Shown: piece after piece, positions 16,613 to 38,411 of the stretch | How the letters are laid out: each line of letters opens with the position of its first letter | How positions within the stretch are numbered: position 1 is the first letter of the stretch | NCBI GenBank assembly: GCA_026702745.1 | Contig: JAPPBT010000058.1 | Span: 72,408-136,407, forward strand | DNA: 64,000 bases | Source: Gemmatimonadota bacterium | GTDB taxonomy: Bacteria > JAAXHH01 | Direction: 5' to 3' | The notes under the pieces: generated by a model | The model's input: only the letters and a program-made list of their open reading frames with translations | Told to the model about the DNA's origin: nothing | Databases searched by the model: none | Made by a program: the position numbers and the translations under genes

Positions 16613-17311
16613 TCAATCTCCGAACTTGTAGCCGACGCCCCGGACGGTCGTAATGATATGTACGCCGTGGCGTTCGATCTTCATGCGCAGCCGTCTAACG
16701 TGTACGTCCACCGTCCTCGTACCGCTGAAATAATCGTATCCCCAGACGGCGGTCAGCAGCTCGTCCCGCGTAAACACCCGTCCCCTGTGCCGGGCCAGGT
16801 GCTTGAGCAACTCGTACTCTTTGAGGGTCAGATCGATCGCCTTGCCCCGGATGGTGACTTCGTAGTTGCCCAGGTTGATCAGCAGGTCGCCCCAGGCGAT
16901 CATATCCTGGATCTGCACGCTGTGGCGCCGCCAGAGGACGTTCTTGATGCGAAGATCGAACTCGCGGACGTTGTATGGCGCGCAGATGAAATCGTCGATT
17001 CCCCGGGTGACGTCGAGGTCGCCGATAACGTCAGCGCCGGTCAGGACCATGACCGCGGGGGCGTGCCGGAACCCGCGCGACCGCAGTTCGTCCATCACGA
17101 AGGGAAGGACCGACCGGGGCCGGTCCGTCTGGATGAGCAAGAGGTCCGAATCGGGTATGCGAGCGTGGAGGTCTTCAACAACGGTGTAATGCAGTTCCGT
17201 TAAGGCGTAACCTGCGCCGCTCAACCACCTGATCAGCGGTTCGACGGGTTCCTGGCGGGCAAAAAGGATCGAAATTCGGGGAAGCCCGTTGCCGCTAAGT
17301 CTAACGGTCAT
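16613..17311 (-). CDS. OmpR-family winged-helix response regulator with an atypical, degenerate receiver domain
   Basis: C-terminal trans_reg_C wHTH (TRDELLTAVWGYDYFSGTRTVDVHVRRLRMKI); the receiver lacks the N-terminal DD pair and the conserved Lys. Confidence 0.65.
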   Translation of the reverse strand: MTVRLSGNGLPRISILFARQEPVEPLIRWLSGAGYALTELHYTVVEDLHARIPDSDLLLIQTDRPRSVLPFVMDELRSRGFRHAPAVMVLTGADVIGDLDVTRGIDDFICAPYNVREFDLRIKNVLWRRHSVQIQDMIAWGDLLINLGNYEVTIRGKAIDLTLKEYELLKHLARHRGRVFTRDELLTAVWGYDYFSGTRTVDVHVRRLRMKIERHGVHIITTVRGVGYKFGD

Positions 17312-17342
17312 GGGTTCTCATTGCAGGCCCACGTTGGAAGGA

Positions 17343-17354
17343 GCAACCGGTTGC
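17343..17354. promoter_or_regulatory. Perfect 12-bp palindrome GCAACCGGTTGC between ssb and the response-regulator gene
   Basis: Seen directly; ~40 nt upstream of the regulator start. Confidence 0.25.
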
Positions 17355-17381
17355 AGCGAACGGACTTTCCCTCGAACGGCG

Positions 17382-17819
17382 TCAGAACGGAAGATCGTCG
17401 TCGGAATCGGCCTCGGGCGAAGGAGGCGGCGCTTCCGTCGCCGTACTCCCGACTCCTCCGGACGCGTCCGATGCGAGCTCATTCTGCTGGCGGGCACTCA
17501 GCATCTGCATCTCGTTTGCCACGATCTCGGTCATGTACCGTTTCATCCCGTTCTGATCTTCCCAGGAACGGGTCTGCAGCCGTCCTTCGACATACACCGG
17601 TGCGCCTTTCTTGAGGTACTGGCCACAGATCTCCGCCAGTTTCGAAAAGGCCACGATCCGGTGCCATTCCGTTTCTTCCCGCCGTTCTCCGTCCTGCGTG
17701 TTCCACTGGCGCGTCGTGGCCATGCGGAAATTGACCACGGCCCGGCCGGCAGGCGTGTACCTCATCTCGGGATCCGCGCCGAGATTACCGATCAGAATGA
17801 CTTTATTCAAGCTGGCCAT
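17382..17819 (-). CDS. ssb: Single-stranded DNA-binding protein
   Basis: OB-fold N-terminus [14 protein letters not shown]..., acidic C-terminal tail DDDLPF. Confidence 0.9.
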
Positions 17820-17927
17820 TGGGGATGCTCCTTATATGAAAAAGAATGAAGTGAGTATAGCGCGATACACGGGGCAAGTCAAGCGAATTTCCCGCTGTCC
17901 CGGGACCGTCGCGCAGGAGAAAACGGC

Positions 17928-17957
17928 TTGCTTCTCCCCGGTATCGCGCCCTATATT
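17928..17957 (+). promoter_or_regulatory. Candidate sigma70-like promoter for lptF (TTGCTT-N18-TATATT) overlapping the 10-bp palindrome TATTCGAATA
   Basis: Hexamer match only. Confidence 0.2.
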
Positions 17958-18064
17958 CGAATAGTCGAGGGACCTTTTCAAAACATCGTAACTATTGTTG
18001 ACGGAACCCGACACCGGATGCGTCGGTATGCCCTCCCCTGGCCCGTTTTCCGCCTGATTGGCCC

Positions 18065-19291
18065 ATGATCCTCCCGGTTCACCTCTACCGATACGTGTTC
18101 AAGGCGCACGTCGGTCCCTTTCTGTTTTCCTTCGTGATCATCACGTTCATCCTCGTGATGGACATCATATTCCAGATCGCCGACCTCATCATCGGCAAGA
18201 ACCTCGACCTGTTCATCGTGCTCGAGGTGTTTTTCCTCAACCTGGCCTGGATTGTCGCCGTATCGATCCCCATGTCCGTGCTGGTCGCCAGCCTCATGGC
18301 ATTCGGCCGGCTTTCGGCCGACAACGAGGTTACCGCCCTCAAGGCTGGCGGCGTCAGTTTCTTCCAGATGGTCTCGCCGGTCCTGGTAGCGGGACTCCTC
18401 CTGGGGAGCGGCCACCTGTTCTTCATGGACGTCATTCTGCCCGAATCCAACTACCGGGCGCGCTCGCTCATGAACGACATCCACCGTGCGCGTCCCACGT
18501 TGCTTTTCACCGGGGGCATATTCATGAAGGACATACCGGGATACAGCATCCTGATCGACCGGGTCAATCCAAGAAACAACGAAATCTCCGGTATCACCAT
18601 CTACGAGACAGAGAACATGCGCTATCCGCGCCTCATGACGGCAAAGACCGGAGAATTCCACGTCAACGAGACGGGCAGCCGGCTCGATCTCATGCTGTAC
18701 GACGGAGAACTGCTTCAGCAGGACGAATCTTCGGGACGCTATCTAAAAGAGATCTTCGAGCGGCAGCGGTTCACGATCCGCACCGAGCCGGCCGGCGTCC
18801 AGCGGTCGGAGGCGGGAATCCGGAGCGACCGCGAGCTGAACATCGCGATGATGCGCGCCAGAATCGATGAATGGCAGACGGAGATCGACGCTGCACTGGC
18901 GATCATGGCACCCGGACCGGTTTCCCCGGAGGCGAAGGCGGATTCCCTCGAGGCAGCGAGGGACCGGGCGGAGCGGACGGTCTCGCTGAGGCAGCGGCAG
19001 AAGAACAGCTACATCGTGGAGATCCACAAGAAGTACGCCATTTCAGCGGCCTGTTTCGTCTTCGTGTTGATCGGCGCACCGCTGGGGGTTCGCATACGCC
19101 GCGGCAGCATCGGCGTCAGCGTGGGCGTCAGCCTGTGCTTCTTCCTGCTGTACTGGGCCTGCCTGCTCGGCGGTGAGGAATTGGCGGACCGCGACCTGAT
19201 CGACCCCGTCTGGGCGATGTGGGCGGCAAACATCGTCATCGGCGTTCCCGGCGCCGTCCTGGTCTGGGTCACCGGCAGGGACCGCATCTGA
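18065..19291 (+). CDS. lptF: LPS export ABC transporter permease LptF (YjgP/YjgQ family)
   Basis: Polytopic membrane protein with a periplasmic beta-jellyroll insert, paired with a paralog downstream. Confidence 0.75.
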   Translation: MILPVHLYRYVFKAHVGPFLFSFVIITFILVMDIIFQIADLIIGKNLDLFIVLEVFFLNLAWIVAVSIPMSVLVASLMAFGRLSADNEVTALKAGGVSFFQMVSPVLVAGLLLGSGHLFFMDVILPESNYRARSLMNDIHRARPTLLFTGGIFMKDIPGYSILIDRVNPRNNEISGITIYETENMRYPRLMTAKTGEFHVNETGSRLDLMLYDGELLQQDESSGRYLKEIFERQRFTIRTEPAGVQRSEAGIRSDRELNIAMMRARIDEWQTEIDAALAIMAPGPVSPEAKADSLEAARDRAERTVSLRQRQKNSYIVEIHKKYAISAACFVFVLIGAPLGVRIRRGSIGVSVGVSLCFFLLYWACLLGGEELADRDLIDPVWAMWAANIVIGVPGAVLVWVTGRDRI

Positions 19292-19355
19292 CGGTCAGCT
19301 TGGACTCGTTTTATCCGCTTCGATTCGTTCGATACCACCGGAGGAACGCCGTTTC

Positions 19356-20438
19356 ATGTCCCTGATCACCCGGTACGTGCTACGCTTGTTCATCACCGCT
19401 ATCGCCGTCAGCCTGATCGCCTTCGTCAGCATCTTCTTCGTGGTCGATCTCATTGAGCAGCTGGACCGGTTCCTGGACCGTGATGTGGCCCCGGTATACA
19501 TCGCGCTCTACTACGTCTACTACACGCCCTATATCTTCGTACTCACGATTCCCGTCAGCCTGCTGCTCGCCAGCCTGTATACCTTCGGCCAACTGACCAG
19601 GCTGGGCGAACTGACCGCCATGAAGGCATCGGGGCTCAGTGTGTACCGGTTGCTGAGGCCCCTGCTCCTGGTCAGCGCGGTGGCAAGCGGTGGCCTGTTC
19701 TGGGCCGGTGAATGGCTCGTTCCCCATACGAGCATGAAACGGGCGGAAATCCAGTCGGAGCACGTGGACCTGCGGGGCGGCGTGGGGCAGCACATACGAA
19801 ACGACGTGTATTTCAGGGGAGAGGGAGGGCGCCAGTTCTATATCCGCGTATTCGACGGTCTCGACGCGGAGGGCACGGGGGTTTTCGTCACCGAATTCCA
19901 GGACAGCCTCGTCTCCAGCGTGCTCGAGGCGGAAAGCGCCGTCTGGCAGGACGGGCGCTGGCTGCTTTCAAACGGGGTGGAACGACGGTTCCAGGCGGGA
20001 GGCGGACTGTCCGAATACAATACCTTCGTCGAACGGGAACCGGACGGATGGTCCGTAACGCCGGAGGATTTCATGCGGGGGCAGAAACGTCCCGAGGAGA
20101 TGAGCTACGGAGAACTCGACCAGTTTATTCAGAATGTCCGGCGCGGAGGCGGAGACGTGCAGGGCTACCTGGTAGACCTCAACCTGAAGATCGCCTTCCC
20201 CAGCGCGGGCCTGATTATCGTGCTTCTGGGCGGCGCGCTGGCCACTCACCTGAGACGGGGCGGTGTCGCGGTGGGATTTGCCCTGAGTATCGGTATCTGT
20301 TTCATCTACTGGGGGCTGCTCCGCTTTACCCAGGCCTTCGGACACGCCGGATTGCTTGACCCCATGTCGGCGGCCTGGGGCGCCAACGCGCTCTTCGGCC
20401 TCCTGGCCCTGGTACTGCTGGTCAGAGCGCCCAAATAA
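19356..20438 (+). CDS. lptG: LPS export ABC transporter permease LptG (YjgP/YjgQ family)
   Basis: Paralog of the upstream gene, same architecture. Confidence 0.75.
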   Translation: MSLITRYVLRLFITAIAVSLIAFVSIFFVVDLIEQLDRFLDRDVAPVYIALYYVYYTPYIFVLTIPVSLLLASLYTFGQLTRLGELTAMKASGLSVYRLLRPLLLVSAVASGGLFWAGEWLVPHTSMKRAEIQSEHVDLRGGVGQHIRNDVYFRGEGGRQFYIRVFDGLDAEGTGVFVTEFQDSLVSSVLEAESAVWQDGRWLLSNGVERRFQAGGGLSEYNTFVEREPDGWSVTPEDFMRGQKRPEEMSYGELDQFIQNVRRGGGDVQGYLVDLNLKIAFPSAGLIIVLLGGALATHLRRGGVAVGFALSIGICFIYWGLLRFTQAFGHAGLLDPMSAAWGANALFGLLALVLLVRAPK

Positions 20439-23043: not shown

Positions 23044-23718
23044 TCAGAAGATCGAACCGAGCCAGGCACCGAGGGCTTCCATCCGGCCGGTCAGCAGGGA
23101 GATGCGCGCCATGACCGTGTAGCCGAAGGCCGCGCCGAAGGTCACCATCAGCACCCAGATACCCGCGCGGGACACGTGTCCCAGCACGCCCTTGTGCTCG
23201 ACAGAGAAGAAGAAGTATACCAGGCCGCAGATCACGCCCAGGACGAGTACGACGTGGGAGAAACTGGCGCCCCAGAGCAGGTTGCCCGAAGCATCGAGCA
23301 CCACGAGGGGAATCATGGTACTCTGGACCTGGATGATGAAGTCCGAATCGAGGAAACGGGGCAGGTTGAATCCCGCCGCACCGCCGACGATGAAGGCCAG
23401 GGCCCAGCGGCTGAGCCAGGCCCAGCGTTCGATCAGGCGGGTGAGCAGCAGCAGGCCGAAGACGGCGGGGATAAGGTAGTAGTAGTCCGGCGACCGGCCC
23501 ACGGCGCCGGGCACGACGCCTGACATGAGCGAAGGGAACAGCTTGCCGAGCAGGTTCGGCACCAGGTGGTCCCAGAACCCGACGGCCATCAGGTAAGCGG
23601 CCGAAACGCCGACGAACAGGTGTTCGGCGAACTTGTAGAAGGGATTGTCCCGGTAAAGGAAACTGAGGATCATCAGCGTGAGGGCCGCGTCGATCCAGAG
23701 CATCAGCGTTACATCCAT
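23044..23718 (-). CDS. Integral membrane protein (~6 TM), unknown family; last gene of the candidate novel operon
   Basis: Hydrophobic profile; follows the upstream gene after a 64-nt gap. Confidence 0.5.
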   Translation of the reverse strand: MDVTLMLWIDAALTLMILSFLYRDNPFYKFAEHLFVGVSAAYLMAVGFWDHLVPNLLGKLFPSLMSGVVPGAVGRSPDYYYLIPAVFGLLLLTRLIERWAWLSRWALAFIVGGAAGFNLPRFLDSDFIIQVQSTMIPLVVLDASGNLLWGASFSHVVLVLGVICGLVYFFFSVEHKGVLGHVSRAGIWVLMVTFGAAFGYTVMARISLLTGRMEALGAWLGSIF

Positions 23719-23782
23719 AAATAGTCCTCTATGGCCGGTGTCAGACCCGGTCCCTCTGGCATGTCCGGTCTGTCCGGCCGGC

Positions 23783-24670
23783 CTAGCCTGCCCGGTTACC
23801 CTGGCCCGTTCTGCCCGCCCGGTCCGCCCGGCCGAAGAAATAGGCCAGGTTGCCCAACAGGACCAGCAGTACGATCAGCACGTGGGTCACGACCTGGGGA
23901 CCCATGCGCATGGTGGCCTCCATGGTGGCGTTCCGGTAGGCCGGATACCGGTCCACCAGGGCGGACTCGTACTCGGAAGCCCCTTTGAGGCCGCCCATCA
24001 GGCCGACCAGTTGCTGGGGATAATAGGGATAGAGTTCCGGCGCCACCACGGCCGTGCCGCCTCCCATGACGGGAATCCCCGCGATGTCGCCCGCGAACTG
24101 GATCCACTCCTTCAGTCCCGGGTCCCCTGCGGTCAGGCTCAGGATGATGACGTAGTCCACCATCTCGTCCACGTCCGCGGTTATGGGAAGGTCGTCGAGG
24201 GGCGTGCCCTCCGCGTCGGCGTTGACCAGGGTCCTGAAGTTGACCACCATGGTGTTGATCGCGCCGCCCAGGCCGGCCTTGTACCCCAGGTTCACGAAGT
24301 CCCGGCCGTACGCCTTGTCCGGAAACTCCTCGGGCAGCAGGTTGTCCGTAATCTTCTTGATCTGTCCCACCCCCTCGGGGAACAGGGTGAAGAAGGACAC
24401 CTCGTGGCCGCGGATCATCGTATGCCGCACGAGGGCCTTCGCCATGGGATCCAGCTCGGGAGCGGTGTCCGGACCGTAGTCGAAGGAAAGGAACACCCGC
24501 GACCCGGCCGGAAGTCGTTCCACGGTGTCGAAGATCGACTGGACGATAGGCGTGGGGCTGTCCTGGAAACGGGGTTTCAGGAGCAGTGGAATGCAGACCG
24601 CCGCCCCGATGAGAAGGAAGATGATCCGGCGGTCGATCTGCAGGATGAAATCGGGAATCCGCATGCTCAC
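23783..24670 (-). CDS. Membrane-anchored protein (N- and C-terminal TM helices flanking a ~200-aa non-cytoplasmic domain), unknown family
   Basis: ATGA overlap with the upstream gene. Confidence 0.5.
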   Translation of the reverse strand: MSMRIPDFILQIDRRIIFLLIGAAVCIPLLLKPRFQDSPTPIVQSIFDTVERLPAGSRVFLSFDYGPDTAPELDPMAKALVRHTMIRGHEVSFFTLFPEGVGQIKKITDNLLPEEFPDKAYGRDFVNLGYKAGLGGAINTMVVNFRTLVNADAEGTPLDDLPITADVDEMVDYVIILSLTAGDPGLKEWIQFAGDIAGIPVMGGGTAVVAPELYPYYPQQLVGLMGGLKGASEYESALVDRYPAYRNATMEATMRMGPQVVTHVLIVLLVLLGNLAYFFGRADRAGRTGQGNRAG

Positions 24671-25347
24671 TCTCCCCGTCCCAGGTAGTTGCGTTCGATC
24701 CCCAGGATGATGCGCAGAGAAGTCGCGATGACCCCCAGGGCGATGCCGATCATGATGGCCCGCTGGCCGGCCGTATTGGGCCAGGCCATAATCCAGTTGG
24801 CCAGGTTCGGCAGTTCGAGGAAGGCCAGGCTTTCCGGCATCCAGGCTGTCAGCCAGGCCCCTACGGGCGTCCTACCCAGCAGGATGACCATCGCGGCCGA
24901 CAGGAGGATGGTCGCCTCTTTCGTGCGCGCCCGGAAGGCACGGTAGGACGCCGACGCGACGAAGAAGGCCAGCAGGGAGAACATGGTGGCCGACAGCGGG
25001 TTGTAGACCCCGTCGAACATGAACCGCAGCCAGGAACCCGAGGCCAGGATCTCCCCACCCATCCCGCCGGGGTTGCCCACCTTGAACAGGCCGATCACGA
25101 GGGTGACGAGAAACGCCACCAGGGTCACCACGCTGTAGGGCCAGTCCGCAGCGCGGCTGGAAACGCGTTTCAGGTGAATCTTGAGCAGGCTCCCGCCGCC
25201 GAGGATGAACGCAAAGACGGTGATGATGGCGAAGTAATCCGAGAAACTCTCGTAGAGCGTATTGAAGGGACCCCGCGTCACGAAGTAGCCCGTGATCAGG
25301 ACCACGCCGATGATAAAGGTGATGATGAGGGGTATTCTACGGCGCAT
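24667..25347 (-). CDS. Integral membrane protein (~6 TM), unknown family
   Basis: Hydrophobic profile; starts 5 nt after the upstream TAG stop. Confidence 0.5.
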   Translation of the reverse strand: MRRRIPLIITFIIGVVLITGYFVTRGPFNTLYESFSDYFAIITVFAFILGGGSLLKIHLKRVSSRAADWPYSVVTLVAFLVTLVIGLFKVGNPGGMGGEILASGSWLRFMFDGVYNPLSATMFSLLAFFVASASYRAFRARTKEATILLSAAMVILLGRTPVGAWLTAWMPESLAFLELPNLANWIMAWPNTAGQRAIMIGIALGVIATSLRIILGIERNYLGRGE

Positions 25348-25352
25348 GGGAC

Positions 25353-26330
25353 CTACCTGAAGAGCCAGAGCACGATTTCGGAGACTTCGCGGACGGTTTC
25401 ACTTCCGGTAATGGATTCCAGGGTGGCCAGCGCGCTGCCGGCCAGGATGAATACGATGGCGATGCCCTTGCCGGCGTCCTGTCCCTTCAGGCTGCCCAGC
25501 ATGCGTGGTTCCTTGGACAGGTACGCGCTGGCAGCGAACAGTTCCTCTCCGATCAGCGTATAGTCGCAGGCCGCCACGAAGAAGGGCAACTGGGGAGGCC
25601 TGGCCGTCCCCGCGATCTGTATGGCGCCGATGGAGTTGCCCGTTTCCGCCAGGATAAGCGATTCGGCGTAGAACCCGCCCAGGTAGAAGCAGGCGGCCGG
25701 CTTTTCCCGCACGATGATGCCGTCTACGGCCGCCGCGTAGGCGAACTGCGCATCGGAGACGTAGTGTATGTCGTCTTCCTGGTAGGCGTCGGGGCGGCCC
25801 GCGGTCAGGTAGGATTGCTGCACGGTTTCCCGGGCCACGCTCATGACGAGGGACTTGCGCACGGGCACGTGCAATCTGGAATCGTAGCCCGCGATGATGG
25901 TGGCGAGATGACCCAGCAGGTTCATGGACGCGATGGTCTGCACCTCGTCCATGTCGTTCAGGCCGGGGACGTAGAGGATGGGCTTGCCCATCTCCGTCGC
26001 CCGTCCCACGGCTTCCTCCACCGTCTCCAGGCCGGCGATCTTGCGTATGAAAAGCGGCCGGCCCGCGGAGGCCAGCACCACGTAAAGCAGGATAGCGCCC
26101 GTCAGGACGATCCCCAGGACCAGGGCCTGGGTCCGGTCCGCGTTGAACCAGCCGGATTCGGTGCCGGCCTGGGCCAGTACGGGATCCGGCTGCAGCACGG
26201 AGAAGATTGCCGTGAGGGCGAGGATCGCCCGCGACAAGGAGAAGTCCGCCGCGAAGGCAAGGACCGCCTGCGACAGGCCGGTCGCGGTGGTTAAGTTCTG
26301 CGGTATGCGGGTCGTTGGGCGGAAATGCAT
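25353..26330 (-). CDS. Membrane protein (N-terminal TM pair, soluble middle domain, C-terminal TM), unknown family
   Basis: Start ATG overlaps the upstream TGA (TGATG). Confidence 0.5.
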   Translation of the reverse strand: MHFRPTTRIPQNLTTATGLSQAVLAFAADFSLSRAILALTAIFSVLQPDPVLAQAGTESGWFNADRTQALVLGIVLTGAILLYVVLASAGRPLFIRKIAGLETVEEAVGRATEMGKPILYVPGLNDMDEVQTIASMNLLGHLATIIAGYDSRLHVPVRKSLVMSVARETVQQSYLTAGRPDAYQEDDIHYVSDAQFAYAAAVDGIIVREKPAACFYLGGFYAESLILAETGNSIGAIQIAGTARPPQLPFFVAACDYTLIGEELFAASAYLSKEPRMLGSLKGQDAGKGIAIVFILAGSALATLESITGSETVREVSEIVLWLFR

Positions 26331-27469
26331 CAGGTCTCCACGATCTCCACGTTCGCCCGGGGCACCGTCACGAGCGCTCCGTTCGTCCGGCGCGCTTCCA
26401 GCACCCGTGCGAAGGCGCCCGTGGGAAGCCGCACGGGCTGTTCGGGCAGCGACGCCACCGTAGCGAGTTCACCGAACCAGGGTTCGCGGATCAGGCGTAC
26501 GAGCGAACCGGCTTCAAGGCCGCGGCCGGCCGGGGCCGCCCGATCCGAGGAGGCCTGATCAGCAGACGCCTCGTCGCCGTCGGACCTGATGATGATCTCG
26601 GGACGGATCACACCGGCCCGGATCTGCGTGGCGCCGCTCAGGGAAGCTTCGCGGTCCTGCATGGAACGGAGCAGTTCGAAGGTGCGTTCTGCCATGGGCA
26701 GCCATCCGAAGCCTTCGGTGACGATCATGGTCAGTCCGATGTCTTCCCCGCCAGTCACCGCGACGCCGATCTGGTATCCCAGGAGGTCGCCGATATCGTG
26801 GTAACGCATGCCGCCCACGACAACGCCGGACGCGCCAACCTCTATCAACTTACGCAACGCGTCAAGGGTGATCATGGATCCGCAGCATACGATCCGGCCC
26901 CGCAGACGGTCATCGATCATTTTGCCGGTGACCTCTTCCTCGGGCGATTGGACGATCTGGCTTATGGGCGCGTGCGTTTCGCCCCCCACGCCGAAGATCC
27001 CCTGAATGCAGGCGCCGGCCGTTTCCACCACGACGCCCTCCCCCGGCAGTGTTTCGGTGACCGTGCCGTCGAGGTAGGCGTTGATCCGCACCGGGGTCGA
27101 CGGTTCCCGGATGAGCACCTGGCCGGTCACTTCCGAGACCATTTCGATGGTGCCGCTTTCGGGACCCCGGACGCTGGATTTGAACAATCCGAAGATCCCC
27201 TTCGATTCGGCGATCAGTTCGCCTTTCGCCACCGGTTCGTCCCGCTGCTTGAGCATGCAGCCCGGCACTTCTTCCGGTGCGATGGCCAGGGCATTGGCCA
27301 CATTGACGTTGTGCACCGGTCCGGGCAGGTAGGTCTCGGCGACTACCGTGTCAGGCCGTACCCGGTCGCCGACCTCCACCAGCACCTGGCCGCTCAGCGG
27401 AAGGCGACGCGTCCTGGCGACGACGGTCCGGGGCGATACGCGCAGGCCTGATGTATAGGCGTGGGCCAT
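26330..27469 (-). CDS. Soluble protein whose N-terminus resembles the NqrA/RnfC barrel-sandwich hybrid domain; unknown function
   Basis: LPLSGQVLVEVGDRVRPDTVV...KGELIAESKGIF...SGTIEMVSEVTGQVL pattern; start ATG overlaps the upstream TGA (TGATG). Confidence 0.55.
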   Translation of the reverse strand: MAHAYTSGLRVSPRTVVARTRRLPLSGQVLVEVGDRVRPDTVVAETYLPGPVHNVNVANALAIAPEEVPGCMLKQRDEPVAKGELIAESKGIFGLFKSSVRGPESGTIEMVSEVTGQVLIREPSTPVRINAYLDGTVTETLPGEGVVVETAGACIQGIFGVGGETHAPISQIVQSPEEEVTGKMIDDRLRGRIVCCGSMITLDALRKLIEVGASGVVVGGMRYHDIGDLLGYQIGVAVTGGEDIGLTMIVTEGFGWLPMAERTFELLRSMQDREASLSGATQIRAGVIRPEIIIRSDGDEASADQASSDRAAPAGRGLEAGSLVRLIREPWFGELATVASLPEQPVRLPTGAFARVLEARRTNGALVTVPRANVEIVET

Positions 27470-29271
27470 CAGTCTGGCTCCGGATAGAGGTCGAGTGCGC
27501 GGCAATCCCTTTGCAGCCTTTCCACCCGTTCGGCCGCGTCCGCCGGCCAATGAAGCGGTCTGCCGCGGGTGTCGACGATCACGCCCAGGGGACCGTTCCG
27601 CACGGTACGGGCGACCGTCACGCCCCGTCCGGCGCCGGCGTCGAAACTACGGACGGGCACGACCTCCAGGGCGACCTCCTCCGCCTCCCCGGCCGGAATC
27701 GCGGCCAGTTCGCCCACGGCCGCCTCGTGCGTCCATTCCCCGTCGTCCGTCCTCGCCCTGACGGTCGCGCACGGGGTGCCGCGCGCTCCGGTACCCACGG
27801 GCGCCACGCACGGACCGAGATGGACAAGGCAATCCCGGTCGAAAACCTCCAGTGCCGCGGTTTCATGCACGGTCGACAGCACGCCCAGGTGGGGCATCAT
27901 GAAGATGCTGTCCACCGCCAGGTTCGTGATGCCCTCGGGCTGGAAGGCGTCCACCATCATCAGCGCGGCCTGCGCCCGGCTCGGTGCGTGGGAGAGCACG
28001 CCCCCGCTGCCGATGACCAGGTCCAGGTTCATCAGATCGACCAGGGTCCGGCCGCCCGTCTGCTGGTCGAAGGTGTCCGATATGGTTCGAAGCTGTTGCA
28101 CGCCCTTCAACTCGACGGCGAAGTTCCGGTGCTGCTCGAAGGCCAGCCGCAGGGCCTCGCGGGCCACGGCCTGCTCGATGATCAGCTCCTCCAGGGTCTG
28201 GGGGATGCTGGTGGGCCGGATCATCTTGTTGCCCATGCGGTCTTTCAGGTCGGCGTCGGTCATTTCAAAGGGCAGCCACCGGGCGATGTTATCCAGCCCC
28301 GCCTCCGTCAGCACGTTGGAAATACTGTAGCTCATGCCGAGATTGGCGCTGACGGTCCGGTTGAACGCGCCGCCGAAGACCGAAAACACGTCGGTGGTCG
28401 CACCGCCGATATCCACACCCAGCACGTCGATGCCACTTCGTTCCGCGACGACCCGAACCATCCGTCCCACGGCGCCGGGTGTAGGCATGATCGGCACGTG
28501 GGTCCACGCCATCAGGTCGCTGTACCCGGGCGCCTGGGCCATCACGTGTTCCATGAACAGGGTGTGGATCTGTTCCCGGGCGGGGCCCAGGTTCTCCGCT
28601 TCGAGCACGGGCCGCAGGTTATCCACCCGGCTGAGTTCCGTCCGTTCGGCCAGAATTCGTCCGACGTCTTCGCGGGCGTCGGCGTTCCCGGCGTAGATGA
28701 CCGGCAGATCGTAGCCGCTGCCCAGCCGGGGTCTCGGGTCCGCCGCGGCGATCAGTTCGGCCATCTCGACCACGTGGGACTTCGTGCCGCCGTCCACGCC
28801 GCCGGACAGCAGGATCATGTCCGGCCGGAGCTGACGTATGCGTTCGATGCGCTCGTGGGGCAGGCGCCCGTCGTTTGACGCCAGGGTTTCCATGACGATG
28901 GCGCCCGCGCCCAGGGCCGCCCGTTCGGCACTCTCGGCGGTCATGCTCTTGACCACGCCGGCCACCATCATCTGGAGCCCTCCGCCGGCGCTGCTCGTCG
29001 AGACGTAGAGGTCCACCCCGCGGTCACCCTCGGCGGGCGACACGATCCGTTCTCCGTCGAGGATCTCGCGGCCGGACTGCTCCTCCACCTCGCGCACCGC
29101 GTTGAGGACGCCCCGCGTGACGTCCTCGAAGGGCGCTTCCACGGTCGTTGGCGCCTCACCGCGAACGACGAGACGGTAGGCGTCGGCGCGTCGCTTGATC
29201 AGGATGGCCTTGGTGGTGGTGCTGCCGCAGTCCGTGGCCAGGATGACGCTGGTTTCTGGTGGAAGGGACAT
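27469..29271 (-). CDS. GlmL/MutL-like ASKHA-superfamily ATPase (actin/Hsp70 fold) with a C-terminal ~130-aa extension
   Basis: Phosphate-1 ILATDCGSTTTKAIL, phosphate-2 VLGVDIGGATTDVFSV and adenosine VIGSGGVLSH motifs; 600 aa. Confidence 0.7.
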   Translation of the reverse strand: MSLPPETSVILATDCGSTTTKAILIKRRADAYRLVVRGEAPTTVEAPFEDVTRGVLNAVREVEEQSGREILDGERIVSPAEGDRGVDLYVSTSSAGGGLQMMVAGVVKSMTAESAERAALGAGAIVMETLASNDGRLPHERIERIRQLRPDMILLSGGVDGGTKSHVVEMAELIAAADPRPRLGSGYDLPVIYAGNADAREDVGRILAERTELSRVDNLRPVLEAENLGPAREQIHTLFMEHVMAQAPGYSDLMAWTHVPIMPTPGAVGRMVRVVAERSGIDVLGVDIGGATTDVFSVFGGAFNRTVSANLGMSYSISNVLTEAGLDNIARWLPFEMTDADLKDRMGNKMIRPTSIPQTLEELIIEQAVAREALRLAFEQHRNFAVELKGVQQLRTISDTFDQQTGGRTLVDLMNLDLVIGSGGVLSHAPSRAQAALMMVDAFQPEGITNLAVDSIFMMPHLGVLSTVHETAALEVFDRDCLVHLGPCVAPVGTGARGTPCATVRARTDDGEWTHEAAVGELAAIPAGEAEEVALEVVPVRSFDAGAGRGVTVARTVRNGPLGVIVDTRGRPLHWPADAAERVERLQRDCRALDLYPEPD

Positions 29272-29275
29272 GGAG

Positions 29276-29665
29276 TCAGTTTACCGTGTCATCCGCCCCG
29301 GAGGCGTGATGCTCAATGCGCTGGATCAGGAACTCCACGTTCTCCCGGCGCTCGATGGCCTCGGCGATCCGGTCGTAGTCCGACGCGTCCACCACCATGT
29401 GAATGAAGGGGCTCAGGAAAGCCATGAACTGGCCGCCCAGAAACGAGAGGGGTTTCATGGATTCCAGGAAGAGGACCGCGGGCGCGGTGAGCTCGCGCGC
29501 GGCTATGGCCTCGGCGATCCGGTCAAGCAGGGCCTGCTGTTCCGCCACGGTCTCTGATGAATCACTCATGCCGGTCCGCCTGGTGCACTTGATCGGCCTG
29601 GTCGTCCTGGTCGGCCTGGTCGGCCTGGTCGGTCCGACCGGTCCTCTAACAGGCTGTCGGAGCAT
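29276..29665 (-). CDS. Small soluble protein of unknown function; N-terminal (PTR)n region may be coding (alternative start at ATG 29569)
   Basis: ORF starts 9 nt after the PhyH stop; conserved-looking core MSDSSETVAEQQALLDRIAEAIA... Confidence 0.4.
   Translation of the reverse strand: MLRQPVRGPVGPTRPTRPTRTTRPIKCTRRTGMSDSSETVAEQQALLDRIAEAIAARELTAPAVLFLESMKPLSFLGGQFMAFLSPFIHMVVDASDYDRIAEAIERRENVEFLIQRIEHHASGADDTVN
29595..29639 (-). repeat. 9-bp tandem repeat (ggcctggtc x5) in the 5' region of the small ORF, encoding (PTR)n if translated
   Basis: Direct repeats in the DNA. Confidence 0.8.
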
Positions 29666-29674
29666 CTCACGGCC

Positions 29675-30526
29675 TCAGCTAATTACAGATTCCGGACCCG
29701 CGTGTCGGCCGATCCATTCCCGCAAGGGTATGTCTTCGGGCAGGGGCGAGGTATAGCCATGACCGCCCGAAGGTCCTGCGCCCAGGAGCTGCCTGCGGAT
29801 GGGGTCGCTGCGGTCCATGTAGTGATCCACGGTCATGTTGTCCCGGGGACGCAGCCAGCGGTAACTGTAGCCGTAGAACAACACCTTGCGGGTGATATCG
29901 GAGTAGTTGATCCCGGATGCGTGCCAGAGACGGCGATCGAAAAACACGGCGTCGCCGGCCGCCGCCCGTATGGGAATGGCACCTTCCGGATCCTGATCGG
30001 CCTCATCTGGAAACTCAATCGCTTCGAGACGGTGGCTGCCCGGAATGGCGTGGAAGTTGCCCCGGTCGGTCGCCGTGCAGTCGCTCAGGAAGAAGGCCAC
30101 TTTCAGCGACACCCGCGGTCGGGGCGTGGTCTCCAGATCGATATTGAGCCTGCCGCTGTCCTGATGCCAGCCCAGACGCCGCTTTTTGGGCTTCTGATCC
30201 GCCGGCGACGGCGGCGACACGATCAAATGTGAATGGTACAGCTGGATGTGCCAGCCGAGAATGCCCCAGACCTTGGGGAAGGTCTTCGGCCAGTCGAGCA
30301 GTTCCAGCAGCAGATCGTCCTGTCCGATGATGTCGAAATGATTCTTGATACTGTAGGGGCTGCCTCCCATGTTGGGACGGCGTTCAACATCGATGCGTTC
30401 CGCGATCCGGTCCAGCGCTTCCACCATATCGCCAGGCAGCACGTTCTCCACGATGAAAAAACCCTGTTCATCGAAGAGGCGCCGCTCTTCGTCCGTCAGG
30501 CAGTAGGCAAGACAGGAAGGGTCCAA
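29675..30526 (-). CDS. Phytanoyl-CoA dioxygenase (PhyH) family Fe(II)/2-oxoglutarate oxygenase; first gene of the operon
   Basis: PhyH-like HxD...H pattern (WHQDSG ... HAIPGSH), 283 aa. Confidence 0.7.
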   Translation of the reverse strand: MDPSCLAYCLTDEERRLFDEQGFFIVENVLPGDMVEALDRIAERIDVERRPNMGGSPYSIKNHFDIIGQDDLLLELLDWPKTFPKVWGILGWHIQLYHSHLIVSPPSPADQKPKKRRLGWHQDSGRLNIDLETTPRPRVSLKVAFFLSDCTATDRGNFHAIPGSHRLEAIEFPDEADQDPEGAIPIRAAAGDAVFFDRRLWHASGINYSDITRKVLFYGYSYRWLRPRDNMTVDHYMDRSDPIRRQLLGAGPSGGHGYTSPLPEDIPLREWIGRHAGPESVIS

Positions 30527-35540: not shown

Positions 35541-36389
35541 TCAGGCCGAACGTTTCAAATCCAATGCCTTCGCCGCCGGTCCCACCAGGAACAGCGCGTA
35601 CAGCGGAGCGTTCACGATTTCGTAAAGTCGCAGTACCATTTCCGCCAGCGCCACGAGAAAAGCCACCCCGATGCGGCCGTTGCGCGAGGAGACGGACGTA
35701 GCGGGGTCCGTGACCATGAAGAAGGCCATGAGCTGGTACATGGGGCCGGTGATGGGCGCGACTTCGGACAGAAACGGGGTTCCGGTCATTAAGGACCGCA
35801 CGTAGGCGAGCGCGACGAAGGACACGGCGTAGGTGAAGGTAACGTGAAAACGCTTCGCCCGCCAGAGGATGACCGAACCCAGCACCCAGATCACGGCCAT
35901 GGCCCAGAGGTCGTTGCCCCACTGCTCGCTCAAGGCGGCCACGGTCCCGGGCGCCGCGAAGAGCACCACGCAGATGCCCAGGTTGGATGGATTCCACAGG
36001 TGCCGGCCCCTGAAGCGGAGGACGTATTTCGACAGGATGGAAAGCAGGCTGGCGATGGCGTAGGGCCACAGGGCAAGCGACCTCAGCAGGATCCCGCAGC
36101 TGATCCCGGTGATGTACGCGCTGGCGGGGTTGAGCCACCGGCCCGTCAGCAGGCGACCCAGGGCCAGCTCCGCCGCCAGTGCCACGGCGATCGCCGTGAA
36201 CAGTTGCGACAGGTCGTGGAGGAATCCCACGTAAAGCTGGCCGAAGACCAGGATCATGGTGATCAGGCCGGAGGACAGGTACCGCGGATCGATCTGCCAT
36301 CCCGCTCCATTCGGCGGTCCCGGCGGCGGACCGGGCGTCCCGGCGCTTCCTGTCGAACCGGCCGCTGCGGCCTTTGTTGCGCCCATCAT
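35541..36389 (-). CDS. Polytopic membrane protein (~7 TM), unknown family
   Basis: ATGA overlap with the upstream FG-GAP gene. Confidence 0.5.
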   Translation of the reverse strand: MMGATKAAAAGSTGSAGTPGPPPGPPNGAGWQIDPRYLSSGLITMILVFGQLYVGFLHDLSQLFTAIAVALAAELALGRLLTGRWLNPASAYITGISCGILLRSLALWPYAIASLLSILSKYVLRFRGRHLWNPSNLGICVVLFAAPGTVAALSEQWGNDLWAMAVIWVLGSVILWRAKRFHVTFTYAVSFVALAYVRSLMTGTPFLSEVAPITGPMYQLMAFFMVTDPATSVSSRNGRIGVAFLVALAEMVLRLYEIVNAPLYALFLVGPAAKALDLKRSA

Positions 36390-38200: not shown

Positions 38201-38411
38201 GGCCTGAAGGGGCAAGAAATCCAGCGGGTGGACAGACGGGAATGCCACGTGTATTACGAATGGTCCGGGTGCCGTTTCAAGGTAGAAACCCGGCACTGGC
38301 CTGTCAAGATGCATTGACACGCCGGACCGGAAGCACTATAAACTCACCGACAGCCCGATCCGCAGATCGATCGAAGTTCACGCAGCGAATCATACTCTAC
38401 CGGAGTGATCA

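What the first reader, a model, noticed from the sequence alone, without database searches (positions are those of the whole stretch)
23044..30526. Eight-gene translationally coupled operon: PhyH oxygenase, ASKHA ATPase, barrel-sandwich protein and four unknown membrane proteins
Eight co-directional minus-strand genes abut or overlap: TGATG at 27469 and at 26330, ATGA at 24670, and gaps of only 4-9 nt elsewhere. Only the final membrane protein sits after a 64-nt gap. The set combines a PhyH-type Fe/2OG oxygenase, a ~100-130 aa helical protein, a 600-aa GlmL/MutL-like actin-fold ATPase, a protein with an NqrA/RnfC-like N-terminal barrel-sandwich domain, and four integral membrane proteins (two ~225-aa 6-TM proteins, one bitopic protein with a large extracytoplasmic domain, one with terminal TM helices). 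I recognise none of the membrane components as Rnf/Nqr, ABC, Sec or pilus families. This pattern of overlaps between genes with no recognisable family suggests a stoichiometric, membrane-associated complex driven by an actin-fold ATPase. I cannot match it to a described system.
Basis: partly seen in the sequence, partly recalled or inferred. Interest (0 to 1): 0.85.

Follow-up and report, generated by a model that had tools for sequence, protein, structure and literature searches.

The report
Uncharacterised seven-gene ATPase-plus-membrane machine
This is a real, tightly packed gene cluster of seven genes (not eight) that encodes a cytoplasmic actin-fold ATPase unit and a four-protein inner-membrane unit; it is conserved in gene order across more than ten bacterial phyla, and I could find no described function for it.

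Summary
The cluster exists as described, with small corrections. Comparing 79 genome loci plus 5 metagenome or MAG loci shows the conserved unit is seven genes, g2-g8 (window 23044-29569, minus strand).

**Parts**
- ATPase module: a 97-aa helical protein, a 600-aa MutL/GlmL-family (PF13941) ASKHA ATPase, and a 379-aa protein with barrel-sandwich, alpha/beta and KOW-like parts.
- Membrane module: DUF6754, a roughly 6-TM protein, a bitopic protein with a periplasmic Rossmann-like domain, and a second polytopic protein.

**Main findings**
- The PhyH oxygenase is a neighbour only in close relatives. It was found in 0 of 79 loci.
- The order g5-g6-g7-g8 holds in about 65 of 79 loci, with unrelated flanks.
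- In Zixibacteria and Ignavibacteria the membrane module occurs two to four times. Where the ATPase genes lie within the stretch held, there is a single g3-g4 pair next to them. The copies are ancient paralogues kept in a fixed order.
- Natural g3-g4 fusions exist.
- Five of the seven proteins match no Pfam or NCBIfam family. None has a solved relative, and DUF6754 appears in no paper searched.

**Interpretation**
I read it as an undescribed ATP-driven envelope machine. A shared energising module would serve interchangeable membrane modules. The substrate is unknown. Homology to Rnf/Nqr, ABC transporters and the glutamate-mutase chaperone role was tested and not supported.

The parts
29276..29569 (-). 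g2: small (97 aa) acidic helical protein, first gene of the conserved unit. No TM segment by hydropathy.
   Evidence: The start at ATG 29569 is supported by the alignment of 16 homologues and by the 97-aa gene call in L080. It lies directly upstream of g3 in 17 of 79 loci. It has no Pfam, NCBIfam or PADLOC hit. The conserved motif is R..LT.PA..FLE...PL...Q...F.P...E.R...IE.
27469..29271 (-). g3: 600-aa ASKHA (actin-fold) ATPase of the MutL/GlmL Pfam family, with a C-terminal extension of about 120 aa.
   Evidence: PF13941 E 2.7e-130 over residues 10-481. It scores below the NCBIfam GlmL cut-offs: 238.8 bits against 475, and TIGR01319 184.5 against 204. It is 58-67% identical across phyla. The nucleotide-binding motifs ATDCGSTTTK, STSSAGGGLQ and GVDIGGATTD are invariant. 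No PDB relative was found.
26330..27469 (-). g4: 379-aa cytoplasmic protein. It has an N-terminal barrel-sandwich hybrid domain, a central alpha/beta region (QGIFGxGGE, VVVGG, TEGFG, GATQIRAGVIRPE) and a C-terminal KOW/SH3-like domain.
   Evidence: Of 61 relatives, 53 match RnfC_N (best E 1.6e-6), 42 match Biotin_lipoyl, 31 match NQRA_N and 18 match KOW. The lysine position used for biotin or lipoate attachment is not conserved. No PDB relative was found. There are 431 clusters (at 50% identity) with E <= 1e-30. Fusions to g3 occur in P0382 and P0499. It overlaps both g3 and g5 as TGATG.
25353..26330 (-). g5: DUF6754 membrane protein. It has a signal-like N-terminus, a TM helix, a conserved region of about 200 aa predicted to face the cytoplasm, and a C-terminal TM helix.
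   Evidence: PF20539 E 1.4e-118. It is 51-57% identical to homologues from other phyla, with about 80 invariant positions, many of them charged or polar. Many homologues carry an N-terminal FN3 domain after a signal peptide, which places the conserved region on the cytoplasmic side. The AF2 model was poor (pLDDT 57).
24667..25347 (-). g6: 226-aa polytopic membrane protein. Hydropathy at the threshold used gives 5 TM segments, and a less hydrophobic sixth carries the conserved LAFFVASASYRAFRA motif.
   Evidence: No consistent Pfam family was found in 42 members, and no PDB relative. In the third modules of L002 and L005 the homologue carries an FG-GAP/VCBS propeller insert.
23783..24664 (-). 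g7: bitopic protein. It has an N-terminal TM helix, a domain of about 225 aa predicted to be periplasmic, and a C-terminal TM helix.
23044..23718 (-). g8: 224-aa polytopic membrane protein with conserved SFLYxDNPxYK, YFFFSxEHxG and FGAxFGxTVMxRxSLL motifs.
   Evidence: The AveC_like hit (E 5.9e-4) appears in only 1 of 42 members, so I take it as chance. No PDB relative was found.
29675..30526 (-). PhyH-type Fe(II)/2-oxoglutarate oxygenase. It is an upstream neighbour specific to this lineage, not part of the conserved system.
   Evidence: PF05721 E 5.7e-22. It has no homologue in any of the 79 loci. It is present only in close relatives with the same flanks (L080 and L083) and absent from L084, which has g2-g8 in other flanks.
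29593..29632 (.). 9-nt tandem repeat (4.4 copies) in the PhyH-g2 spacer. It produces the spurious N-terminal 'PTRPTRPTR' extension of the longest g2 ORF.
   Evidence: (TRF). It is absent from the 96%-identical relative L080.

Best explanation
g2-g8 encode one conserved, self-contained inner-membrane machine built from two modules.

Module A is cytoplasmic. It comprises the MutL/GlmL-family ASKHA ATPase g3, its partner g4 (barrel-sandwich, alpha/beta and KOW-like parts) and the small helical protein g2.

Module B is a four-protein membrane unit:
- g5 (DUF6754), whose nearly invariant domain faces the cytoplasm;
- g6 and g8, both polytopic;
- g7, whose Rossmann-like domain faces the periplasm.

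Proposed mechanism (inferred, not shown): g4 docks the ATPase onto the invariant cytoplasmic face of g5. ATP binding and hydrolysis by g3 drive conformational changes through the TM bundle (about 14-16 helices) to the periplasmic side. There g7, and in some lineages FN3 and FG-GAP accessory domains, act on or move an envelope substrate.

One module A can serve several module Bs. This resembles the logic of ECF transporters, but with a different ATPase superfamily. PhyH is an unrelated neighbour.

What is shown: the gene unit and its boundaries, the modular architecture, the conservation, the intact ATPase motifs, the g3-g4 fusions and the fold of g7. What is inferred: the topology, the docking, the energy coupling and the transport or mechanotransmission function.
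For: - Synteny: g5-g6-g7-g8 occur in the same order in about 65 of 79 loci from Zixibacteria, Ignavibacteria, Gemmatimonadota, Eisenbacteria, Planctomycetota/Phycisphaerae, Acidobacteriota, Marinimicrobia, Aegiribacteria, Coatesbacteria and others. g2-g3-g4 lie directly upstream in many of them.
- Unit boundaries: flanks differ completely between lineages, while g2-g8 stay together.
- Modularity: there are 2-4 tandem copies of g5-g8. Where the ATPase genes lie within the ~20 kb held, there is a single g3-g4 pair, directly upstream (e.g. L002, L005, L013, L078) or adjacent and divergently oriented (L016, L035, L064, L065). The copies cluster by position (m1, m2, m3) across genomes, so they are ancient specialised paralogues.
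- Coupling of g3 and g4: TGATG overlap in the window and natural fusion proteins P0382 and P0499.
- Coupling of g4 and g5: TGATG overlap, and the pair stays adjacent in Planctomicrobium where the other genes were not detected within about 10 kb.
- ATPase competence: the phosphate-binding motifs are invariant, and g3 is 58-67% identical across phyla.
- Topology: signal peptide and FN3 lie before the g5 TM helix. Positive residues lie on the domain side of g5 and on the terminal sides of g7.
- g7 structure: two TM helices flank an alpha/beta domain, pLDDT 91.
- Extracytoplasmic accessory domains: FN3 on g5 and an FG-GAP propeller in g6.
- Close spacing of genes across loci.
Against: - No component has a characterised homologue that performs transport.
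- The only characterised relatives of g3 (GlmL/MutL) are described as enzyme-reactivating chaperones, not motors (PMC4682846).
- The g7 domain has a generic nucleotide-binding-type fold, which is unexpected in the periplasm. Its predicted location rests only on the positive-inside rule.
- The g5 model failed (pLDDT 57), so the central subunit is structurally unread.
- In many loci (for example L001, L014, L019) no ATPase module lies within 10 kb. In WOR-3 and Hydrothermia, g4 stands alone. Obligate co-occurrence at the genome level was not tested.
- No substrate, outer-membrane partner or regulator is conserved nearby, and no riboswitch was found.
Confidence: 0.45

Rival explanations
1. A membrane-anchored enzyme with its own ATP-dependent chaperone. 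In this reading the extremely conserved DUF6754 domain of g5 is a catalytic, possibly cofactor-dependent, enzyme. g3/g4/g2 act like GlmL, DdrAB or EutA reactivases, using ATP to exchange a damaged cofactor or reset the enzyme. g6-g8 would scaffold the enzyme or channel its substrate.
For: g3 belongs to PF13941, whose named members are described as chaperones for reactivation of glutamate mutase. g5 has about 80 invariant positions, rich in D, E, R, K, Q, T and one Cys, as is typical of active sites. One reactivase serving several paralogous enzymes fits the architecture of one module A with many module Bs.
Against: No B12-dependent mutase or other cofactor-enzyme family lies in any of the 79 loci. 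g3 scores far below the GlmL equivalog cut-off and carries an extra 120-aa C-terminal domain. No cobalamin or other riboswitch was found. A reactivase model does not explain the fixed set of three further membrane proteins or the periplasmic FN3 and FG-GAP domains.
Confidence: 0.2
2. An ion-coupled unit. The membrane module would conduct H+ or Na+ through conserved acidic and polar residues in moderately hydrophobic helices of g5 (E223, E229, N232, D256, E262, E263). With g3, the system would then be a novel primary ion pump, or an ion-motive-force-assisted motor.
For: Invariant acidic residues lie within two segments of g5 (about 216-240 and 246-272). By my own hand estimate their mean hydropathy is about 0.9-1.1; the run did not flag them as TM segments. 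AF2 predicts them as helices, at low confidence. High conservation of this kind is typical of ion-translocating cores.
Against: The membrane embedding of these segments is not established, because the model confidence is low. Three paralogous modules per ATPase would be unusual for an ion pump. The periplasmic FN3 and FG-GAP domains suggest macromolecular ligands.
Confidence: 0.12
3. A membrane-attached cytoskeletal or membrane-shaping system. g3 would polymerise like other actin-fold proteins (MreB, FtsA, MamK, ParM), and g4-g8 would anchor the filaments to the inner membrane.
For: g3 has the ASKHA fold and is very highly conserved. It is associated with bitopic and polytopic membrane proteins, as PilM and FtsA are with their partners.
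Against: PF13941 lies on the hydantoinase/oxoprolinase branch of the ASKHA superfamily (weak Hydantoinase_A hits). To my knowledge no filament-forming members are known on that branch. No similarity to the MreB, FtsA or PilM families was found. Tandem specialised membrane modules are not a feature of known cytoskeletal anchors.
Confidence: 0.08
4. One reading: an eight-gene operon in which the PhyH oxygenase is a functional subunit or modifies the machine's substrate.
For: PhyH is co-directional and directly upstream in the window and in relatives L080 and L083. There its gap to g2 is 17-28 nt, so co-transcription is plausible in this lineage.
Against: PhyH has no homologue in any of the 79 loci. 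It is absent from L084, which keeps g2-g8. In the window it is separated from the conserved g2 start by 105 nt containing a tandem repeat.
Confidence: 0.05
5. A divergent Rnf/Nqr-type redox-driven ion pump, with g4 as NqrA/RnfC, g6 and g8 as NqrD/E or RnfA/E, and g7 as NqrC/RnfG.
For: g4 has an RnfC_N/NQRA_N-like barrel-sandwich N-domain. There are two polytopic proteins of about 225 aa and one bitopic protein with a periplasmic domain, which superficially parallels the Nqr subunit list.
Against: No member of the g6 or g8 families matches the Rnf-Nqr Pfam family, and none matches Nqr or Rnf chains in the PDB. g4 lacks the NADH/FMN, SLBB and Fe-S domains. No conserved cysteines occur in g4 or g6-g8. 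g7 has a Rossmann-like fold with no FMN_bind match. The energising subunit is an ATPase.
Confidence: 0.03

Closest known systems
GlmL/MutL, the accessory protein of coenzyme-B12-dependent glutamate (methylaspartate) mutase (Pfam PF13941, NCBIfam NF040745/TIGR01319)
   Same: g3 matches PF13941 end to end (E 2.7e-130) and has the ASKHA nucleotide-binding motifs.
   Different: It scores about half the GlmL equivalog cut-off. It carries an extra conserved C-terminal domain of about 120 aa. It is never next to glutamate mutase genes. Instead it is linked, and sometimes fused, to g4 and to four membrane proteins.
Rnf / Na+-NQR complexes (RnfC/NqrA, RnfA/E-NqrD/E, RnfG/NqrC)
   Same: It has a peripheral cytoplasmic subunit with an N-terminal barrel-sandwich hybrid domain, two small polytopic subunits and one bitopic subunit with a periplasmic domain. 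The genes are encoded in one operon.
   Different: Beyond the barrel-sandwich domain no homology is detectable. It has no flavin, Fe-S or NADH modules and no conserved cysteines, and it is driven by an ATPase.
ECF-type ABC importers (a shared EcfAA'T energising module with exchangeable S components)
   Same: The logic is similar: one energising module is encoded once and serves several paralogous membrane modules.
   Different: There is no ABC ATPase and no EcfT or S-component homology. Each membrane module here has four proteins. This is an analogy only.
ASKHA reactivases of radical enzymes (DdrAB/PduGH, EutA)
   Same: An ASKHA ATPase is paired with a smaller alpha/beta partner protein. The role proposed for GlmL is of this type.
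   Different: No sequence match to these families was found. No client B12 enzyme is present in the loci. The partners here are membrane proteins.
Actin-fold proteins docked to bitopic membrane partners (PilM-PilN-PilO, GspL, FtsA)
   Same: A cytoplasmic actin-fold protein is genetically coupled to bitopic inner-membrane proteins of an envelope machine.
   Different: No family match was found. g3 is on the hydantoinase/MutL branch. There are no secretin, pilin or AAA+ ATPase genes nearby.

Membership tests
GlmL/MutL glutamate mutase accessory protein | Full-length match to Pfam PF13941 (MutL) | tested here: met
   435.6 bits against a cut-off of 27, covering residues 10-481 of 600.
GlmL/MutL glutamate mutase accessory protein | Score at or above the NCBIfam equivalog or subfamily cut-offs (NF040745 475 bits; NF040744 600 bits; TIGR01319 204 bits) | tested here: not met
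   238.8, 225.8 and 184.5 bits respectively.
GlmL/MutL glutamate mutase accessory protein | Encoded between or next to the glutamate mutase subunits glmS and glmE (or another B12 aminomutase) | tested here: not met
   No such family occurs among the neighbours in the window, L080, L083, L084 or the 79 loci. The only recurrent neighbours are g2 and g4-g8.
Rnf/Nqr ion-translocating oxidoreductases | RnfC/NqrA-type barrel-sandwich hybrid N-terminal domain | tested here: inconclusive
   The window g4 scores 18.4 bits, below the 25.6 cut-off. 53 of 61 relatives match at E<1 (best 1.6e-6), and P0486 scores 37 bits. The fold class is likely, but it is shared with biotinyl/lipoyl, HlyD and other 'hybrid' domains.
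Rnf/Nqr ion-translocating oxidoreductases | NADH/FMN-binding, SLBB and 4Fe-4S domains (RnfC), or the NqrA middle and SLBB domains | tested here: not met
   No such Pfam hits in g4 or in 61 relatives.
Rnf/Nqr ion-translocating oxidoreductases | Six-TM subunits of the Rnf-Nqr family (RnfA/E, NqrD/E) with conserved Cys | tested here: not met
   No Rnf-Nqr hits in 42 g6 and 42 g8 family members. Profile searches against the PDB, which holds Nqr and Rnf chains, were empty. No conserved Cys was found.
Rnf/Nqr ion-translocating oxidoreductases | Periplasmic FMN-binding subunit (RnfG/NqrC) | tested here: not met
   The g7 domain is a doubly wound alpha/beta fold. There is no FMN_bind match.
ABC / ECF transporters | ABC-type nucleotide-binding domain (Walker A/B and signature motif) | tested here: not met
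   The only ATPase is ASKHA-type (PF13941). No ABC_tran hit was found in any of the eight proteins.
DUF6754 (Pfam PF20539) | Match above the gathering threshold | tested here: met
   g5 scores 395.1 bits against a cut-off of 27.
PhyH Fe(II)/2-oxoglutarate oxygenases | Match to PF05721 above threshold | tested here: met
   g1 scores 79.5 bits against a cut-off of 22. However, the gene is not part of the conserved unit.
Known or candidate anti-phage defence systems (PADLOC-DB) | Any component matching a PADLOC model | tested here: not met
   No hits for all eight proteins.
The conserved g2-g8 system itself (no name) | Physical complex between module A and module B; ATP-dependent activity | not testable with these tools
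   Only genetic evidence is available: overlaps, fusions and conserved adjacency. Multimer structure prediction and biochemistry could not be done here.

The most novel reading that the evidence does not exclude
g2-g8 define a previously unrecognised class of bacterial envelope machine. It would be a primary-active transporter or mechanotransducer energised by a MutL/GlmL-type ASKHA ATPase instead of an ABC, P-type, AAA+ or rotary ATPase. Its four-protein membrane modules would be exchangeable. The three ancient paralogous modules of Zixibacteria and Ignavibacteria might form a hetero-oligomer, where single-module phyla form a homo-oligomer. It would serve a housekeeping envelope function in the FCB-group phyla, Planctomycetota and Acidobacteriota, among others.
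Probability: 0.4. Interest if true: 0.9.

Novelty: categorically new. Interest (0 to 1): 0.8.

Why it matters
- **Scale.** The genes are spread over more than ten phyla. The ATPase is 58-67% identical and DUF6754 51-57% identical between phyla. Conservation at this level usually marks core machinery.
- **Gap in knowledge.** Five of the seven proteins match no Pfam or NCBIfam family. None has a solved structure, and no paper in the searched library mentions DUF6754 or PF13941.
- **Possible consequences.** If the ATPase does energise the membrane modules, this would add a new energy-coupling principle, ASKHA-driven, to bacterial membrane biology. It would also give a second and probably larger role to a family now annotated only as 'glutamate mutase accessory protein'. 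That label may be misleading metabolic reconstructions of MAGs.
- **Tractability.** Cultured carriers such as Planctomicrobium make the question experimentally accessible.

Tried and rejected
1. **g5/g7 and g6/g8 as ancient paralogue pairs (a duplicated two-gene unit).** This was suggested by motifs that look similar by eye. hhalign probabilities were <6%, so it is rejected.
2. **Internal inverted repeats in g6 or g8.** None detectable.
3. **AveC_like hit of g8.** Present in 1 of 42 members, so chance. The TMD0_ABC hits of g6 (15 of 42, best 1.2e-4) are weak and look compositional.
5. **Fold of g7.** The model is good, but the matches are generic Rossmann/flavodoxin-like and give no functional lead. 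The AFDB library was unavailable.
6. **PDB sequence and profile searches for g3-g8.** Nothing significant.
7. **Conserved extra neighbours.** Only two turned up. One is a small family in 9 loci, most of them placing it just upstream of g2; one member has weak bPH and TM-like hits. The other is a small basic protein after the last module in 14 loci. PPDK, GcvP, peptidases and similar genes are lineage-specific.
8. **Riboswitches and leaders.** None in the window or in seven loci.
9. **Promoter and terminator scan.** No more matches than in shuffled sequence, so uninformative.
10. **Defence-system libraries.** No hits.
11. **Literature.** 0 papers for DUF6754 and 0 for PF13941. Broader term searches found nothing relevant. 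The only GlmL statement found is the chaperone annotation in PMC4682846.

Full report
**Observation**

ORF listing and junction inspection confirm eight co-directional minus-strand genes between 23044 and 30526.
- g3 stop and g4 start overlap as TGATG at 27469. g4 stop and g5 start overlap as TGATG at 26330.
- The g2-g3 gap is 4 nt, the g5-g6 gap is 5 nt and the g7-g8 gap is 64 nt.

Two details need correction.
- The g6/g7 junction is GTGA (GTG at 24670), or an ATG two nt after the stop. It is not ATGA.
- The 9-nt PhyH-g2 gap applies only to the longest ORF. Sixteen homologues, and the gene call in a relative whose g4 is 96% identical, show that g2 is a 97-aa protein starting at ATG 29569.
- The extra 96 nt of the long ORF contain a 9-nt tandem repeat of 4.4 copies (29593-29632). 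The relative lacks this repeat. The real PhyH-g2 spacer is therefore 105 nt.

**Family assignments**

| Gene | Result |
|---|---|
| g1 | PhyH, E 5.7e-22 |
| g3 | Pfam MutL PF13941, E 2.7e-130; well below the NCBIfam GlmL cut-offs |
| g4 | Sub-threshold RnfC_N hit in the window protein; among 61 relatives, RnfC_N in 53, Biotin_lipoyl in 42, NQRA_N in 31, KOW in 18 |
| g5 | DUF6754, E 1.4e-118 |
| g2, g6, g7, g8 | No Pfam, NCBIfam or PADLOC match, even when 42-44 family members were scanned one by one |

g4 therefore has a barrel-sandwich hybrid N-domain and a KOW/SH3-like C-domain around an unassigned alpha/beta core. The lysine used for biotin or lipoate attachment is not conserved. No protein of the set has a relative among PDB sequences, by single-sequence or profile search.

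**What the conserved unit is**

They are 51-57% identical to the window protein across phyla. A genome scan returned 79 loci with 10-kb flanks. They come from Zixibacteria, Ignavibacteria, Gemmatimonadota, Eisenbacteria, Coatesbacteria, Aegiribacteria, Planctomycetota (including cultured Planctomicrobium), Phycisphaerae, Acidobacteriota, Cloacimonadota, Marinimicrobia and others.

tblastn of all window proteins against these loci gave the following.
- g5-g6-g7-g8 occur in the same order in about 65 of 79 loci.
- g2-g3-g4 lie directly upstream in the Planctomycetota, Acidobacteriota, Aegiribacteria and several other loci.
- PhyH, the sulfatase, YbdK, the nucleotidyltransferase and MetK are found in none.

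Three further loci show how far the PhyH link extends.
- Close relatives L080 and L083 share the PhyH neighbour and the same flanks.
- L084, whose g5 is about 70% identical (68-72%), carries g2-g8 in entirely different surroundings without PhyH.

The unit is therefore seven genes, g2-g8. Median intergenic gaps across loci are 13-21 nt for g5-g6, g6-g7 and g7-g8.

**Modular architecture**

- In Zixibacteria and Ignavibacteria the four-gene membrane module is repeated two to four times. Where the ATPase genes lie within the stretch held, there is a single g3-g4 pair, either directly upstream (e.g. L002, L005, L013, L078) or adjacent and divergently oriented (L016, L035, L064, L065).
- A neighbour-joining tree of 87 concatenated modules groups them by position (first, second, third) across genomes rather than by genome. 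These are three ancient, specialised paralogous module types kept in a fixed order.
- The window's single module groups with single-module Gemmatimonadota and Eisenbacteria loci, next to the 'second-position' type.
- An exhaustive search with g4 found 431 clusters (at 50% identity) with E<=1e-30. It also found two natural fusion proteins, MutL domain followed by g4 (P0382 and P0499).
- In Planctomicrobium, g4 and g5 remain adjacent. The other genes were not detected within about 10 kb on either side.
- In WOR-3 and Hydrothermia, g4 stands alone.
- Together with the TGATG overlaps, this links g3 to g4 and g4 to g5.

**Anatomy of the proteins**

- **g3** keeps invariant ASKHA phosphate-binding motifs and is 58-67% identical across phyla. 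It has a conserved C-terminal extension of about 120 aa that lies beyond the MutL domain match.
- **g5** has a signal-like N-terminus, which in many phyla is followed by periplasmic FN3 domains. Then come a TM helix, a region of about 200 residues with about 80 invariant positions, and a final TM helix. The FN3 position and the flanking basic residues place the conserved region in the cytoplasm. Its AF2 model was poor (pLDDT 57), so its fold is unknown.
- **g6 and g8** are polytopic, with strong family-specific motifs and no conserved cysteines. In some third-position modules g6 carries an FG-GAP propeller insert.
- g5 and g7, and g6 and g8, are not detectably homologous. g6 and g8 have no internal repeats.

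**Mechanism**

The best-supported reading is a two-module machine.
- A cytoplasmic energising module (g3 ATPase, g4 adaptor, g2) docks through g4 onto the invariant cytoplasmic face of g5.
- It drives conformational changes through the g5-g8 membrane bundle to the periplasmic side.
- There the g7 domain and the lineage-specific FN3 and FG-GAP domains engage an envelope substrate.
- One energising module serves one to four membrane modules. This resembles ECF transporters in logic only.

The steps shown are the gene unit, the modularity, the genetic coupling, the intact ATPase motifs and the g7 fold. The docking, the energy coupling and the transport or mechanotransmission function are inferred. 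I put this at about 0.45.

The main rival (0.2) takes the GlmL precedent literally. GlmL is described as a chaperone for reactivation of glutamate mutase (PMC4682846). Under this rival g3/g4 would be a reactivase for a membrane enzyme formed by DUF6754.

Other rivals are an ion-coupled or ion-pumping unit (0.12), a cytoskeletal anchor (0.08), a functional role for PhyH (0.05) and a divergent Rnf/Nqr complex (0.03). The Rnf/Nqr feature tests failed apart from the barrel-sandwich domain, which was inconclusive.

**Comparison with what is known, and novelty**

- g3 belongs to the Pfam MutL family. It fails the GlmL equivalog score, the gene-context criterion and the length criterion.
- g4 shares only a widespread domain class with RnfC and NqrA.
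- The membrane proteins belong to no described transporter family.
- Searches of 8 million full texts for DUF6754 and PF13941 returned nothing.
- No riboswitch, defence-system match or conserved outer-membrane or regulatory partner was found.

I therefore rate it as lying outside known kinds of system. Two caveats apply: the function is unknown, and the literature library is incomplete.

**Verdict**

The finding is real and interesting. New here are the modular structure (one energising unit with several ancient paralogous membrane units), the g3-g4 fusions and the fold of g7.

Noticed in passing
window 29593-29632: A 9-nt tandem repeat (consensus TCGGCCTGG on the + strand, 4.4 copies) sits in the PhyH-g2 spacer. 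It is absent from relative L080, whose g4 is 96% identical. There the spacer is only 17 nt. The repeat creates a spurious 32-codon N-terminal extension of the longest g2 ORF.
   Followed up: yes
window 36386-38320 (minus strand): A 644-aa FG-GAP/VCBS-repeat protein with a C-terminal ASPIC/UnbV domain. The same repeat type is inserted into g6 homologues of third-position modules in Zixibacteria loci L002 and L005. I did not examine whether this is more than coincidence.
   Followed up: partly
L005 49-372, L049 5538-5978, L057 5193-5705, L071 5709-6182, L076 5752-6105, L078 2603-3055 and three further loci: A small protein family (about 110-170 aa) recurs in 9 loci, most of them placing it just upstream of g2. 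One member has weak bacterial-PH and TM-like hits. It may be an eighth, optional component. No homologue lies next to the window cluster.
   Followed up: partly
L002 18467-18784, L005 18202-18519, L010 17246-17578, L028 17435-17791 and 10 further loci: A small, very basic protein (about 105-118 aa, no Pfam hit) follows the last membrane module in 14 Zixibacteria or Ignavibacteria loci. In five of these it is followed by pyruvate phosphate dikinase.
   Followed up: no
L037 5384-9085 (Planctomicrobium sp. SH661): In this cultured planctomycete only g4 and g5 are adjacent. They lie directly downstream of ftsY, the SRP receptor gene. g3 and g6-g8 were not detected within about 10 kb on either side.
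   Followed up: partly
L081 and L082, 7163-12342 (WOR-3 / Hydrothermia): Here g4 homologues (about 51% identical) are stand-alone genes. They lie between a TMEM260-like TPR protein (a putative protein O-mannosyltransferase family) and an aminotransferase, and the arrangement is conserved in both genomes.
   Followed up: no
window 17000-20438 (LptF/LptG pair, by analogy with L080 16888-19306) and 20583-22936: The cluster is flanked downstream by a nucleotidyltransferase, MetK and a divergent LptF/LptG pair. Upstream lie a sulfatase and a YbdK-type carboxylate-amine ligase. These flanks are conserved only in close relatives (L080, L083).
   Followed up: partly
L084 569-2395: A 608-aa protein with DUF6785 and the neighbouring-numbered Pfam family PF20580 lies upstream of the cluster in a more distant relative. 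It is another uncharacterised family from the same Pfam batch. I did not check whether it is linked.
   Followed up: no
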